Of a DNA stretch of 35,199 nt, positions 2,885-35,199 are shown piece by piece. The translations under genes and the position numbers were made by a program. How positions within the stretch are numbered: position 1 is the stretch's first letter; the number at the start of each line of letters is the position of its first letter. The DNA is from Synergistaceae bacterium (GTDB lineage Bacteria > Synergistota > Synergistia > Synergistales > Aminobacteriaceae). The DNA lies in the NCBI GenBank assembly GCA_031289165.1, contig JAITPZ010000183.1, positions 1 to 35,199 on the forward strand. Reading direction: 5' to 3'. The notes under the pieces were generated by a model that worked only from the letters and a program-made list of their open reading frames with translations, did not search any database and was not told the origin of the DNA.

Positions 2885-2987
2885 ATAGTGGTTTAAATTA
2901 AGTTTACTATAAGAGGCTAAAAGTTTTCCTCGACAGTGAGCCGTTTTCAGCTATTCTAACTTCAGGCTTTTTAATTGAATTCACTAT
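2885..2987 (+). repeat. MITE-like AT-rich hairpin repeat, copy A (103 bp)
   Basis: ATAGTGGTTTAAATTAA...TTAATTGAATTCACTAT forms a terminal inverted repeat matching at 13 of the first 17 positions. It contains the invariant core GACAGTGAGCCGTTTT (2932-2947). G+C is 33/103, against more than 60% in the flanks. It abuts the buk stop codon. Confidence 0.85.
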
Positions 2988-2988
2988 G

Positions 2989-4050
2989 TTACGCGCCGTA
3001 TTTTTTAGGTGTTTCGCGGTTCGTCAGGACGCGCCAGGCGCCCTCGGCCAGGGCCTGCATCTCGTCCTCGCCGGGATAGCGCAGGATGGGCGCGATGAAG
3101 CTCGTCCGGGATGTTATGCGTTCGCAAAGTTTGTCGCTGTAAGCCAGGCCGCCGGTCAGGACGATCGCGTCGAGCTCTCCCTTCAGGACGGCCGCGCAGC
3201 CCCCGATCTCCTTCGAAATTTGCAGGACCATGGCCTCGAACACGAGAACGGCTTTCGCGTCGCCGTTCGCGATGAGCTTCTCGACCTCGCGCATGTCGTT
3301 GGTCCCCAGATGCGCGACCAGTCCGCCCCGGCCGTTGATCATCTTCCCGATTTCCTGGCGGGTGTATCTGCCGCCGAAGCACAGATCGGCCACTCCGCCC
3401 ACCGGCAGGCTGCCCGCCCGCTCGGGCGACATCGGGCCCTCGCCGTCCAGGGCGTTGTTAACGTCGATGACGCGCCCTTTCGCGTGCGCCCCGACGGAAA
3501 CCCCGCCGCCCATGTGCGCGACGACGAGGTTGCACTCCTCGTAGTTCTTTTTCAGGTCGGCGGCCGCGCGGCGCGCCACGGCCTTCTGGTTGAGCGCGTG
3601 GAAGATGGAGAGGCGCGGAAGCTCCGGCAGGCCCGAGATTCGCGCCTCGTCCACCAGCTCGTCCACGACGACGGGATCGACGATGAAGGCCGGAATGTTC
3701 CCCGCGGCCGCCGCGAACCGGACGGCCAGCGGCGCTCCGAGGTTGCTGGCGTGAGCGGCATTTTTCAGGTCCTCCAGCATTTGGCCGCTGACGGTATACG
3801 TTCCGCTCTCTATGGGCTTCAGCAGTCCGCCGCGCCCCACGACGGCGGCGAAGTCCACGGGCTTCACCCCTTTGGCGTCGAGCGTCTTCGAGATTTCATC
3901 GAAGCGGAACTGCTCCTGGTCCATGACGTTGGCGTATCGAGCGAGGTCGGATGCTTCGTAACGCTGAGTTTCGGTCCACAGGCATTTCGTGTCCTCGAAA
4001 AGCGCGATCTTCGTACTCGTCGAGCCGGGGTTGATGGCAAAAATGTTCAT
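2989..4050 (-). CDS. buk: butyrate (branched-chain fatty acid) kinase, paralog 1
   Basis: 353-aa ORF with an N-terminal INPGSTSTK motif, plus VVGRGG, HMGGGVSVGAH and YPGEDEM motifs typical of butyrate kinase. AAAGGAGAG lies upstream of the ATG. Confidence 0.9.
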   Translation of the reverse strand: MNIFAINPGSTSTKIALFEDTKCLWTETQRYEASDLARYANVMDQEQFRFDEISKTLDAKGVKPVDFAAVVGRGGLLKPIESGTYTVSGQMLEDLKNAAHASNLGAPLAVRFAAAAGNIPAFIVDPVVVDELVDEARISGLPELPRLSIFHALNQKAVARRAAADLKKNYEECNLVVAHMGGGVSVGAHAKGRVIDVNNALDGEGPMSPERAGSLPVGGVADLCFGGRYTRQEIGKMINGRGGLVAHLGTNDMREVEKLIANGDAKAVLVFEAMVLQISKEIGGCAAVLKGELDAIVLTGGLAYSDKLCERITSRTSFIAPILRYPGEDEMQALAEGAWRVLTNRETPKKYGA

Positions 4051-32649: not shown

Positions 32650-34712
32650 AGTTCGCTCTGGCGGGAAACCCCAACTCCGGGAAGACGACTCTTTTCAACA
32701 ACCTCACGGGAAGCTCCGCGCACGTGGGCAACTGGCCCGGAGTCACGGTGGACCGGAAGGAGGGGACGTACAGAAGCCCGTCGGGCCCCATCGTCATCGT
32801 CGATCTGCCCGGCATCTACTCACTGTCGCCCTACTCCCCGGAGGAGATCGTCTCCCGCGACCACATCGTCGAGGAGAACCCCGACCTCATCATCAACATC
32901 GTCGACGCTACGAACCTCGAACGCAACCTGTACCTGACGACCCAGCTGATGGAGACCGACTGTCCCGTCATCGTCGCCCTCAACATGATGGACGTCGTCC
33001 GAAAGGAAGGGCTCGTCATCGACGTGGACATTCTGGAAAGGGAACTGGGCCTTCCGGTCGTTCCGATCAGCGCATTGGACGCCAGCGGCCTGAAAGACCT
33101 GATGGAACGGGCTCTGGCGGCCGTCAGGCCCCGGCGGGGGCATTCGGTGCTCGACGCCTCTCCGATGGCCCCGCAGCTGCGCCGGGCGGTGGAGATGCTC
33201 GACGAGCGGCGGATCCCGCACCCCGTTTTTCACGCCGTCAAACTTCTGGAGGGCGACGCGCTGGAAAAAAAGGAGTTTCGGGACCGTTACGCCGCCGACC
33301 TGGTGGAGCGCTTCGACGAGATGAAGGAACACATCGCCCTCTCCGATGACATGGAGGGAGACTTCGAAGCCGCCATCGCCGACCTGCGCTACCGCCACAT
33401 CACGGATCGCTGCCGCAGGGCACTGGTGCGTCCCCGCAGAGCTGGCGAACGGACCCTCTCGGATAAAATCGACAGCGTCCTGACGAACAGGTACCTGGGC
33501 ATCCCGATCTTTCTGATCGTCATGTTCTGCGTCTTTCACCTGATATTCAGCGACAACCTCCTGGGAAGCGGCGTTCCCTCCCCGGGCGTGTGGCTTCAGG
33601 ACCTGATGAGCACGCTGATGGACCAGGTCATCGGCCTCGTCGACGCCGGCGTCGCGGGCCTCAGGGCCTCGGACTGGGCGCGGAGCATGGTCGTCGACGG
33701 CATCTTCGCCGGCGTGGGGGCCGTCCTGAGCTTCCTGCCCCAGATCATGATGCTGTTTCTCTTTCTGTCGATTCTGGAGGACTCGGGCTACATGGCGCGC
33801 GCAGCTTTTCTGATGGACCGCATTTTACGCTGCTTCGGGCTCTCCGGCAAGTCCTTCCTGCCCATGCTGATGGGGTTCGGCTGCTCGGTTCCGGCCATGA
33901 TGGCGACGCGCACGCTGGAGGACGAGCGGGACCGCCGCATCACCATCATGCTGATGCCCTGCTTCTCGTGCGGGGCCAAGGCGCCGATATGGGCCATGTT
34001 CGCCGCCGCCCTCTTCCCGCAGCACGGGGACGTCATGATCTTCGGCGTCTACCTCGTCGGCATTCTCACGGCCATCGGTGCGGGGATTCTGCTCAGAACC
34101 CTGGTGTTCCGGAAGGACTCCGTCCCCTTTATCATGGAGCTTCCCGCTTACCACATGCCGCGCGCGAAAAACGTCGCGCGCGAGCTTTGGGAAAAGCTGA
34201 GAAGTTTCCTCGTTCGCGCCTCGACGATCATCGCCGGGGCGACCGTCGTCATCTGGTTTCTGTCGAACTTCAATCCGTCGCTGACCATGGTCGAACCCCA
34301 CGGCGCCGAAAGCATCCTGGGCGTTCTGGGAACCTTCCTCCAGCCCCTCTTCGTCCCCCTGGGTTTCGCCTCGGGTCCGGACGGCTGGAAGGCGGTCGTG
34401 GCGATACTGACCGGCCTTATCGCGAAGGAGATGGTCGTCTCGACGCTGGGCGTGCTCTACACGGGCGCCGATGTGTCGGACGGCGCCCTCTCCGCCGCGC
34501 TCGCGGCGACGCTGGCCGCGACCTTTTCCCCCGTCGCCGCCCTGTCGTTCATGACGTTCAACCTGCTCTCCGTCCCCTGCATGGCGGCCGTCGCCACAGC
34601 GCGCGGAGAGATGAAGAGCGCTCGCTGGACCTGGTTTACGATCGCCTTCTGGATCTCGACCGCCTGGGTCGTCTCCTTCCTCATCTTCCACGTCGGCAGC
34701 CTGCTGACGTAG
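32646..34712 (+). CDS. feoB: ferrous iron transporter FeoB
   Basis: N-terminal G-domain (GNPNSGKTTLFN, DLPG, NMMD) followed by a polytopic permease. I chose the ATG at 32646. The ORF-track start at 32226 runs through feoA out of frame. Confidence 0.95.
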   Translation: MKFALAGNPNSGKTTLFNNLTGSSAHVGNWPGVTVDRKEGTYRSPSGPIVIVDLPGIYSLSPYSPEEIVSRDHIVEENPDLIINIVDATNLERNLYLTTQLMETDCPVIVALNMMDVVRKEGLVIDVDILERELGLPVVPISALDASGLKDLMERALAAVRPRRGHSVLDASPMAPQLRRAVEMLDERRIPHPVFHAVKLLEGDALEKKEFRDRYAADLVERFDEMKEHIALSDDMEGDFEAAIADLRYRHITDRCRRALVRPRRAGERTLSDKIDSVLTNRYLGIPIFLIVMFCVFHLIFSDNLLGSGVPSPGVWLQDLMSTLMDQVIGLVDAGVAGLRASDWARSMVVDGIFAGVGAVLSFLPQIMMLFLFLSILEDSGYMARAAFLMDRILRCFGLSGKSFLPMLMGFGCSVPAMMATRTLEDERDRRITIMLMPCFSCGAKAPIWAMFAAALFPQHGDVMIFGVYLVGILTAIGAGILLRTLVFRKDSVPFIMELPAYHMPRAKNVARELWEKLRSFLVRASTIIAGATVVIWFLSNFNPSLTMVEPHGAESILGVLGTFLQPLFVPLGFASGPDGWKAVVAILTGLIAKEMVVSTLGVLYTGADVSDGALSAALAATLAATFSPVAALSFMTFNLLSVPCMAAVATARGEMKSARWTWFTIAFWISTAWVVSFLIFHVGSLLT

Positions 34713-34717
34713 ACAAC

Positions 34718-34755
34718 GCGGCCCGTATTCGGGCCTCTGCGGGTTTGTTTTGTCT
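34718..34755 (+). terminator. short GC hairpin with a T-rich tail after feoB
   Basis: GGCCCG-tatt-CGGGCC (34720-34735), then GGGTTTGTTTTGTCTG. A second AT-rich hairpin, CCCAAAA-gca-TTTTGGG followed by TTTTTTT, lies at 34818-34843. Confidence 0.4.
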
Positions 34756-34914
34756 GTGATTCTGTTTGGAATCTGTTATCTGATCCGGGAGGGTTGTGTG
34801 TTCTTTTTCGAAGAAGGCCCAAAAGCATTTTGGGAATTTTTTTCATTTCCTTTATATGACTATTTAGTTGCTTCCGTGAGTTTTGGCCCGACGGGTTGAG
34901 CACAGGTTATGGTT

Positions 34915-35042
34915 CAGGGCAAACGCATGAACATAATAGTAATATCTTGCAAAAACTAATTTTGCGTATTTTACCTAGGTATTTTTACGTAAAAGATAAA
35001 TTTAGTCATATCAATGCCTTACGCCTTGATGCGTTTGCCCTG
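34915..35042 (+). ncRNA. structured AT-rich 5' non-coding region of an IS110-family element (candidate bridge/guide RNA locus)
   Basis: CAGGGCAAACGCAT (34915-34928) is perfectly complementary to ATGCGTTTGCCCTG (35029-35042). The pair encloses about 100 nt of AT-rich sequence with further local hairpins (TGCAAAA-actaa-TTTTGCG and TATTTTT-acgta-AAAGATA), immediately upstream of the transposase fragment. Confidence 0.3.
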
Positions 35043-35044
35043 CC

Positions 35045-35199
35045 TTGAACGGTTACGAAGAATCAAAGAAGGGCGTTGATATATGGGCAGGAGTCGATGT
35101 CCACAAGACGAGTTACGCTGTGAGCGTGTTGAGCGGCAACGGGATTCGTCATAGTTTCACTACCTCCACGGATTGAGGCCCAATACGGAGAAATGATCG
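35045..35199 (+). mobile_element. IS110-family (DEDD) transposase N-terminal fragment. It is disrupted and runs off the window.
   Basis: The translation ...WAGVDVHKTSYAVSVLSGNGIRHSFTTSTD then stop (35174-35176) carries the G(I/V)DVHK signature of IS110 DEDD transposases. A GAAGGG-9 nt-ATG at 35083 is one base out of frame at a GGG run. Confidence 0.6.

What the first reader, a model, noticed from the sequence alone, without database searches (positions are those of the whole stretch)
34860..35199. IS110-family element at the window edge: decayed transposase preceded by a long-stem structured non-coding region where a bridge RNA would be encoded
The fragment ...AGVDVHKTSYAVSVLSGNG... is a typical IS110 DEDD N-terminus, but it looks decayed in two ways.
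- The ATG with a reasonable SD (35068-35073, ATG at 35083) is one base out of frame at a GGG run.
- The reading frame hits TGA after 43 codons.

Immediately upstream, a perfect 14-bp long-range stem (34915-34928 with 35029-35042) encloses about 100 nt of very AT-rich sequence with nested hairpins. IS110-group elements encode their roughly 150-200 nt bridge (guide) RNA in this 5' non-coding end, and it specifies the target and donor sequences. The element therefore probably still carries the RNA even though the protein is broken. The left boundary is undefined, somewhere between the feoB terminator at about 34755 and about 34910. The rest of the element lies outside the window.
Basis: partly seen in the sequence, partly recalled or inferred. 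Interest (0 to 1): 0.6.

Follow-up and report, generated by a model that had tools for sequence, protein, structure and literature searches.

The report
MITE beside a dead IS110 fragment
The "long stem" is the pair of inverted ends of a 128-bp miniature transposon (an ISAs1-type MITE with at least 11 other copies or fragments in this genome), and the gene piece next to it is a headless, stop-bearing remnant of an IS110-family transposase, so no bridge RNA is encoded here and the locus is ordinary mobile-element debris.

Summary
The sequence features are real, but the main interpretation fails.

**The stem is a MITE.** The 14-bp stem (17 nt at 94%: 34915-34931 / 35026-35042) is the terminal inverted repeat pair of a 128-bp repeat.
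- The genome holds 7 full copies, 3 cut by contig ends and 2 fragments. All have unrelated flanks and none adjoins IS110 sequence.
- Perfect 10-bp target duplications flank 3 own-genome copies and 4 copies in related genomes.
- The same 16-bp ends bound a 784-bp element on contig C152 whose ORF matches the ISAs1 transposase model (NF033564, 246 bits).

**The IS110 call is right, but the piece is a relic.**
- It is 82-87% identical to 361-aa transposases carrying PF01548 and PF02371.
- Those relatives start 13 codons further upstream. The "out-of-frame ATG at a GGG run" is the conserved in-frame Ile-Trp, not a frameshift.
- Homology starts abruptly at 35057 (residue 14), so the start codon and the whole left end are missing.
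- TGA at 35174 is premature, and the contig ends 23 nt later.

**Where the left end survives it differs.** It is a 70-90-nt hairpin, which suggests an IS1111-like layout with the RNA 3' of the gene.

Verdict: ordinary, low interest.

The parts
34713..34914 (+). Non-coding stretch between the feoB stop and the MITE. It holds two terminator-like hairpins (34730-34747 and 34818-34834, each followed by a T run). It has no similarity to any IS110 left end.
   Evidence: BLAST of the L013 and C7 left ends against 34700-35199 matches only from 35057 onward. A self-genome BLAST finds only a 40-bp hit to C19.
34854..34893 (.). 40-bp segment repeated once elsewhere in the genome (C19:7075-7114, 90% identity). 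Meaning unknown.
34915..35042 (.). 128-bp ISAs1-type MITE, the 'long-stem structured region' of the finding. This copy has no target-site duplication: left flank GGTTATGGTT, right flank CCTTGAACGG.
   Evidence: An nhmmer family profile gives 7 full copies, 3 cut by contig ends and 2 fragments. The alignment shows unrelated flanks. Copies of the same 128-bp length occur in other genera of the family.
34915..34931 (+). Left terminal inverted repeat of the MITE. It begins CAGGGCAAACGCATGA.
   Evidence: repeat I1. A near-identical 16-mer (15 of 16 bases; it is the MITE's right-end form exactly) bounds the ISAs1-transposase-bearing element C152:627-1410.
35026..35042 (-). Right terminal inverted repeat of the MITE.
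35043..35056. 14 nt of unassigned sequence between the MITE end and the start of IS110 homology. It contains the in-frame TTG (35045) that the ORF listing takes as a start.
   Evidence: Homology to C7, L013 and P0001 starts at 35057.
35057..35173 (+). IS110-family (DEDD) transposase relic covering residues 14-52 of a 361-aa protein, including the GVDVHK motif. It lacks the start codon, residues 1-13 and the whole left end.
   Evidence: tblastn and blastp against P0001, P0003 and P0004 give 87%, 82% and 69% identity.
35174..35199 (+). In-frame TGA (35174-35176) where relatives continue (...D-P/N-Q-G-L-I-K-Q-F...), then 23 nt to the contig end. These are too few to show whether homology continues.

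Best explanation
Region 34860-35199 is a patch of mobile-element debris downstream of feoB. It is not an IS110 left end with a bridge RNA.

**The MITE (34915-35042).** This is one copy of a 128-bp non-autonomous transposon. Insertion duplicates 10 bp of target. Across the family, insertions cluster 17-19 bp upstream of -35-like hexamers.

**The IS110 relic (35057 to the contig end).** This is the remnant of an IS110-family RNA-guided recombinase gene. It lost its first 13 codons and its entire left non-coding end at a sharp breakpoint, and it carries a premature TGA. It cannot make a recombinase, and no guide RNA is encoded upstream of it.

**Shown:** the repeat family, the inverted ends, the target duplications, the shared ends with an ISAs1 gene-bearing element, the homology and truncation of the IS110 piece, and the different left end in the relatives.

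**Inferred:** mobilisation in trans by an ISAs1 enzyme. No intact gene for one is in this 82%-complete assembly. Also inferred: the missing duplication around the window copy reflects a later rearrangement (deletion or recombination between copies) that may also have beheaded the IS110 gene.
For: **MITE**
- The 128 bp recur at C15 (98%), C23, C64 and C30 (89-90%), C245 (86%) and C242. Copies cut by contig ends are at C266, C198 and C87, and fragments at C295 and C99. All have unrelated flanks and none has IS110 sequence beside it.
- Perfect 10-bp direct duplications abut the ends at C15, C23 and C30, and in four copies from related genomes (L039, L041, L050, L053).
- C152:627-1410 carries the same ends. 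It encodes residues 107-314 of the ISAs1 transposase model NF033564 (246 bits, cut-off 70) and matches PF01609.
- Full-length 128-bp copies at 70-82% identity occur in four other genera of the family.
- Among 55 outward flanks, a hexamer within one mismatch of TTGACA lies 17-19 nt from the end in 9, against about 0.8 expected.

**IS110 relic**
- The best relatives are 361-375-aa proteins with PF01548 + PF02371 / NF033542.
- Alignment covers residues 14-52 only.
- C7 keeps residues 1 to about 38 plus the left end, and is 97% identical to the window over 35057-35120 but unrelated upstream.
- C183 keeps residues 223-295 with two frameshifts and a stop.
- No PF01548 hit was found anywhere in the assembly.
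Against: - The window's MITE copy has no target duplication and no -35 box 18 nt from either end. Its present flanks are therefore not the original insertion site, or the contig is mis-joined through the repeat.
- No intact ISAs1 transposase gene is in the assembly, so current mobility is unproven.
- No published bridge-RNA covariance model was available. Rfam 15 gave no match, but I did not establish that Rfam holds such a model.
- Read-level checks were impossible.
- The contig ends 23 nt after the TGA, so how much of the transposase gene follows is unknown.
Confidence: 0.9

Rival explanations
1. The stem-enclosed AT-rich region is the 5' non-coding end of the IS110 element and encodes its bridge RNA, which survives although the protein is broken.
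For: - IS110-group elements do encode the bridge RNA in a long left end (PMC11208160).
- The stem is perfect and lies directly upstream of the transposase homology.
Against: - The 128 bp is an independent repeat with its own inverted ends and 10-bp duplications. None of the other 11 copies or fragments adjoins IS110 sequence.
- The IS110 piece starts at residue 14 and has no left end.
- The left ends of C7, L013 and the Tritonibacter relative are a different 70-90-nt hairpin.
- There is no Rfam match and the fold z-score is only -1.72.
Confidence: 0.02
2. Assembly chimera. The contig was joined through the MITE repeat, so the feoB side and the 157-nt IS110 tail come from different places in the genome, and the adjacency of MITE and relic (or of feoB and MITE) is artefactual.
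For: - This copy has no target duplication, although it is among the youngest (98-99% identical to C15, C266 and C198).
- The contig ends only 157 nt beyond the MITE.
- Three other copies sit at contig ends.
- This is a fragmented metagenome-assembled genome of 297 contigs.
Against: - The window copy carries a private base (T at 34960 where all close copies have C). It is therefore a distinct copy, not a collapse of two assembled ones.
- Several older copies also lack duplications.
- The question could not be tested with reads.
Confidence: 0.15
3. The 128-bp element is a host-recruited structured RNA or regulatory cassette (small RNA, terminator or promoter module), not merely selfish DNA.
For: - Length is kept at 126-129 bp, and internal blocks and small hairpins are conserved at 70-80% identity across genera.
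- Insertions cluster next to promoters.
Against: - Pairing in the outer stem is what inverted transposase-binding ends give anyway. The one pair that changes on both sides (A-T to G-C in three copies of one genome) fits co-evolution of ends with the enzyme.
- No promoter or terminator consensus lies inside the window copy.
- Copies occur in both orientations relative to the neighbouring promoter.
- No expression data were available.
Confidence: 0.05

Closest known systems
ISAs1-family insertion sequences and their miniature derivatives (MITEs)
   Same: - The ends begin CAGGG and are 16-17-bp terminal inverted repeats.
- 10-bp target duplications are present.
- An element with the same ends encodes an NF033564 ISAs1 transposase fragment.
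- The element is multi-copy, non-coding and 128 bp long.
- The family traits 'CAGGG ends, 8-10-bp duplications' are from my memory of ISfinder. I could not find them in a held paper.
   Different: - No intact autonomous partner is present in this assembly.
- This particular copy lacks its duplication.
- I know of no description of this 128-bp family of gut Synergistaceae.
IS621 / IS110-group bridge RNA (Durrant et al. 2024, PMC11208160)
   Same: The neighbouring gene remnant belongs to the same protein family of DEDD + Tnp recombinases. Relatives match the IS621 and ISCro4 chains 8wt6 and 9t56 in the C-terminal domain.
   Different: - The bridge RNA of that group lies in a long left end between the element boundary and the start codon. 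Here the left end and the start codon are absent.
- The candidate 'RNA' is a DDE-transposon MITE.
- Relatives of this element have only a 70-90-nt left end.
IS1111-group elements (e.g. IS4321/IS5075, ISPpu9)
   Same: The left end is short: 70-90 nt in C7, L013 and L048. This matches the 'short LE, long RE' layout that Durrant et al. give for IS1111, where the RNA is 3' of the gene.
   Different: - Right ends of close relatives could not be fetched, so a long right end, subterminal inverted repeats and a 3' RNA were not shown.
- One candidate 12-nt subterminal repeat pair in the Tritonibacter element is at chance level.
The other MITE family in this window
   Same: It is also a small AT-rich non-autonomous repeat in the same contig.
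   Different: The two share no sequence similarity. The ends and the length also differ.

Membership tests
IS110-group bridge RNA | Encoded in the left non-coding end, between the element boundary (core) and the recombinase start codon of the same element | tested here: not met
   IS110 homology starts at residue 14 (35057). The start codon and left end are absent. The 128 bp has its own transposon ends and duplications.
IS110-group bridge RNA | Conserved, with covariation, upstream of orthologous recombinase genes | tested here: not met
   C7, L013 and L048 carry a different 70-90-nt hairpin upstream of the start codon. None of the other 11 copies or fragments of the 128-bp repeat adjoins IS110 sequence.
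IS110-group bridge RNA | Match to a bridge-RNA covariance model | tested here: inconclusive
   No Rfam 15 family matches at E <= 10 in 34000-35199, nor in the related loci. I did not verify that Rfam holds such a model, and the published models were not available.
IS110-group bridge RNA | Two internal loops complementary to the donor (element ends) and to the target | not testable with these tools
   The ends and target of this IS are unknown. No full-length copy could be fetched.
IS110-family transposase (DEDD recombinase) | Homology to proteins carrying PF01548 (DEDD_Tnp_IS110) and PF02371 (Transposase_20) | tested here: met
   Identity is 82-87% over residues 14-52 of P0001 and P0003, which match PF01548, PF02371 and NF033542. 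The fragment alone is too short for Pfam.
IS110-family transposase (DEDD recombinase) | Intact open reading frame with its own start | tested here: not met
   Residues 1-13 are missing, TGA is at 35174 and the contig ends at 35199.
IS1111 subgroup of the IS110 family | Short left end and long right end with a 3' RNA, plus subterminal inverted repeats of 7-17 bp (PMC11208160) | tested here: inconclusive
   The left end is 70-90 nt in three loci. Right ends were not obtainable. The only candidate subterminal repeat is at chance level.
ISAs1-family MITE | Terminal inverted repeats shared with an element that encodes an ISAs1 transposase | tested here: met
   The 16-nt ends of C152:627-1410 match the MITE ends. 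Its ORF scores 246 bits on NF033564.
ISAs1-family MITE | Target-site duplication of fixed length (10 bp here) directly abutting the ends | tested here: met
   The duplication is perfect in C15, C23 and C30 and in L039, L041, L050 and L053. It is not met for the window copy itself.
ISAs1-family MITE | Multi-copy, unrelated flanks, no coding capacity | tested here: met
   12 loci in the own genome and further copies in five related genomes. The element is 128 bp long.

The most novel reading that the evidence does not exclude
This 128-bp ISAs1-type MITE family of gut Synergistaceae homes to promoters. About a third of the elements sampled have one end 17-19 bp upstream of a -35-like hexamer. This would extend to another phylum a habit that this scan noted for ISAs1 elements in Akkermansia and others. 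It would imply that the ISAs1 transposase reads a promoter-associated feature of the DNA, or the RNA polymerase itself. The window's copy, which has neither a duplication nor a promoter, would then be a rearranged copy whose rearrangement beheaded the neighbouring IS110 gene.
Probability: 0.45. Interest if true: 0.4.

Novelty: new member of a known kind. Interest (0 to 1): 0.15.

Why it matters
**It removes a false lead.** A perfect long stem upstream of an IS110 gene fragment looks like a bridge RNA. Here it is the inverted ends of an unrelated miniature transposon, so this locus offers no new RNA-guided recombinase system.

**A practical lesson for scans.** Check genome-wide copy number and target duplications before calling a stem next to a transposase a guide RNA. 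Align the fragment to full-length relatives before inferring frameshifts.

**Minor positive yield.**
- A MITE family shared by several genera of Synergistaceae, with a measurable preference for sites just upstream of promoters.
- A short, conserved left-end hairpin that contains the start codon, in a clade of IS110-family elements that probably carry their guide RNA 3' of the gene.

Tried and rejected
**Searches that gave nothing**
- Pfam on the 43-aa fragment and on a read-through of the TGA: no hit, too short.
- PF01548 across the own genome: no hit.
- Rfam at a permissive threshold on the window end and on four related loci: only chance-level microRNA and snoRNA matches, plus the tRNAs of C7.
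- Fold of 34860-35090: z = -1.72, not distinctive.
- BLAST extension of the read-through past the TGA: none, only 7 residues remain.

**Attempts to fetch full-length copies of the IS**
- The metagenome scan returned one locus (L013) that is cut at residue 52.
- The genome-contig scan returned only a 22%-identical Muribaculaceae gene.
- Search of 107 genomes of the same family gave only two hits, both about 30% identical.
- The best plasmid relative (Tritonibacter, 41% identity) is single-copy, so its boundaries could not be set by comparing copies.

**Other dead ends**
- Looked for a reciprocal recombination product, that is the window's flanking 10-mers beside other MITE copies: none seen.
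- Considered that the 14 nt at 35043-35056 are diverged IS110 sequence. Rejected, because the next 64 nt are 97% identical to C7 and the boundary is therefore sharp.
- Literature search for a held paper giving ISAs1 end and duplication traits or ISAs1 MITEs: none useful.

Full report
**1. What is in the sequence**

The window is the whole of contig C118 of a fragmented metagenome-assembled genome: 297 contigs, 2.42 Mb, 82% complete.

- feoB ends at 34712 and is followed by two terminator-like hairpins.
It extends to 17 nt at 94% (34915-34931 / 35026-35042).
- The frame 35045-35173 reads ...EESKKGVDIWAGVDVHKTSYAVSVLSGNGIRHSFTTSTD. It is followed by TGA at 35174, and the contig ends at 35199.

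**2. The 'structured region' is a MITE**

*Copies.* A search of the organism's own genome with 34700-35199 showed that the stem-bounded block 34915-35042 is repeated on eleven other contigs, while its flanks are not. A profile built from the full copies finds:
- 7 full-length copies: C118, C15, C23, C64, C30, C245 and C242;
- 3 copies cut by contig ends: C266, C198 and C87;
- a 45-bp piece interrupted by another repeat: C295;
- a 62-bp internal-deletion form: C99.

*Duplications.* Flanks are unrelated and none contains IS110 sequence. Perfect 10-bp direct duplications abut the ends at C15 (ATGAGGGTAT), C23 (CGCGGTCTCC) and C30 (AACGGACCTG). The same holds for four copies from related genomes.

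*Parent family.* The ends begin CAGGGCAAACGCATGA. The same 16-mer in inverted orientation bounds a 784-bp element at C152:627-1410. Its minus-strand ORF, which has one TAG, matches residues 107-314 of the NCBIfam ISAs1 transposase model (NF033564, 246 bits against a cut-off of 70) and Pfam PF01609. The 128-bp element is therefore a miniature, non-coding derivative that uses ISAs1-type ends.

*Distribution.* Copies of the same length, 70-82% identical, occur in five genomes of four other genera of the family, with eight or more hits each in two genomes of one genus. None was found in the two other species of the own genus that were searched.

*Structure.* An alignment of 23 full copies shows that the outer stem is simply the two ends. 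One position changes on both arms together (A-T to G-C) in the three copies of one genome, as expected if the ends co-evolve with their enzyme.

**3. The window's MITE copy is atypical**

- It has no duplication: left flank GGTTATGGTT, right flank CCTTGAACGG.
- Yet it is 98-99% identical to C15, C266 and C198, so it is young.
- It carries one private base, T at 34960.

Either a later rearrangement replaced one flank (a deletion next to the element, or recombination between copies), or the contig is mis-joined through the repeat.

**4. The transposase piece**

*Identity.* The fragment alone is too short for Pfam. A search for longer proteins found 361-375-aa transposases at 69-87% identity. These carry PF01548 and PF02371 and match NF033542, 'IS110 family RNA-guided transposase'. 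The family call is right.

*No frameshift.* The N-termini of these relatives read M-A-K-K-S-V-S-R-W-D-E-I-V-E-E-S-K-K-G-V-D-I-W-V-G-V-D-V-H-K. The alleged 'SD' (35068-73) and 'out-of-frame ATG' (35083) are therefore the in-frame codons for K-K-G and I-W. There is no frameshift at the GGG run. The same TATGGG is present in the C7 relic and in metagenome locus L013.

*The real damage.*
- Homology at both protein and DNA level starts abruptly at 35057, which is residue 14.
- The first 13 codons and everything upstream of them are missing.
- Nothing in 34713-35056 resembles them.
- The TGA at 35174 falls where relatives continue. The 23 nt after it are too few to judge.

*Other relics.* Two further relics of the same element lie elsewhere, and no intact IS110-family gene is in the assembly.
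- C7:3514-3400 keeps the left end plus residues 1 to about 38. It is 97% identical to the window over 35057-35120.
- C183:10450-10666 keeps residues 223-295 with two frameshifts and a stop.

**5. What the true left end looks like**

C7 and L013 (contig Ga0123353_10256330) share sequence from about 86-90 nt upstream of the start codon and diverge beyond that, which marks the element's left boundary. A 41%-identical transposase on a Tritonibacter scottomollicae plasmid (NZ_CP136707.1) has the same architecture about 70 nt upstream.

All three form a hairpin. The outer stem is CCATG(A/C)TGG paired with CCA(T/G)CATGG, and its 3' arm contains the ATG start. Four pairs change on both sides.

Durrant et al. 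(PMC11208160) describe IS110-group elements as having long left ends that hold the bridge RNA. IS1111-group elements have short left ends and long right ends that hold it. A left end of 70-90 nt therefore points to the IS1111-type layout for this clade. I could not obtain right ends, so this remains a lean and not a result.

Either way, the window contains neither end of the element.

**6. How the MITE behaves**

I followed a lead from earlier notes of this scan, that ISAs1 elements land about 18 bp upstream of -35 boxes, and examined 55 outward flanks of copies from this and related genomes.

- A hexamer within one mismatch of TTGACA lies at offset 17, 18 or 19 in 9 flanks, against about 0.8 expected. 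Other offsets have 0-2 each.
- In C23, C64, C30 and one copy in a related genome, the spacing is exactly 18 nt and a plausible -10 box follows.
- The preference is real but partial, and the window copy does not show it.

**7. Verdict**

The locus is an ISAs1-type MITE next to a beheaded, stop-bearing IS110-family relic at a contig end. That makes it a new member of a known kind, with low interest.

Noticed in passing
G000 contig C7 (locus L017) 3509-3598, minus strand; L013:2452-2546; L048:1431-1505: A conserved 70-90-nt left-end hairpin sits in a clade of IS110-family elements. The outer stem CCATG(A/C)TGG / CCA(T/G)CATGG encloses the start codon, and four pairs change on both sides across Synergistaceae, a metagenome contig and a Tritonibacter plasmid. 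It may block translation until the RNA is unfolded or the element circularises. The short left end suggests an IS1111-like layout.
   Followed up: partly
Flanks of MITE copies: C23:4635-4658, C64:7468-7491, C30:4029-4052; L044, L035, L037, L038, L042: Ends of the 128-bp ISAs1-type MITE lie 17-19 nt from a TTGACA-like hexamer in 9 of 55 flanks (about 0.8 expected). Several are followed by a -10 box, one of them upstream of a tRNA gene (C64). This agrees with the promoter-homing behaviour that this scan noted for ISAs1 elements in other phyla.
   Followed up: partly
G000 contig C183 (locus L015): C183:10450-10666 and C183:10870-10929: A third relic of the same IS110-type gene covers residues 223-295 and has two frameshifts and a stop. 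The contig then ends in about nine tandem copies of the heptamer CTTCGGG.
   Followed up: partly
window 34854-34893: A 40-bp segment is 90% identical to C19:7075-7114, where it also lies just after a gene's stop codon. It is too short to assign and may be the edge of another small repeat.
   Followed up: partly
window 34811-34841: A second terminator-like hairpin with a T run lies about 100 nt downstream of the feoB terminator, with no gene between them.
   Followed up: no
L039 (G009:C30:6709-7236), right flank of the MITE: Directly after the 10-bp duplication (AGGTTTACGA), a second element with a CAGGGTAAAC end begins. It looks like two ISAs1-type elements inserted one after the other at the same target.
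   Followed up: no
G000 contig C295 (locus L016) 2949-3085: A MITE copy is interrupted after 45 bp by a different repeat that recurs at C115:8255-8326 (97%) and C219:8548-8603 (92%). This is a nested insertion of yet another small repeat family.
   Followed up: partly
L013:2280-2440: Upstream of the IS110-type left end in the metagenome contig lies a roughly 150-nt palindromic element with several long inverted arms. It may be a REP- or MITE-like target of the IS.
   Followed up: no
G000 contig C269:5615-5725 (locus L019): A second ISAs1 transposase fragment (model positions 255-291) lies at a contig end. It may be the edge of an unassembled full-length ISAs1 copy that could be the autonomous partner of the MITEs.
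   Followed up: no
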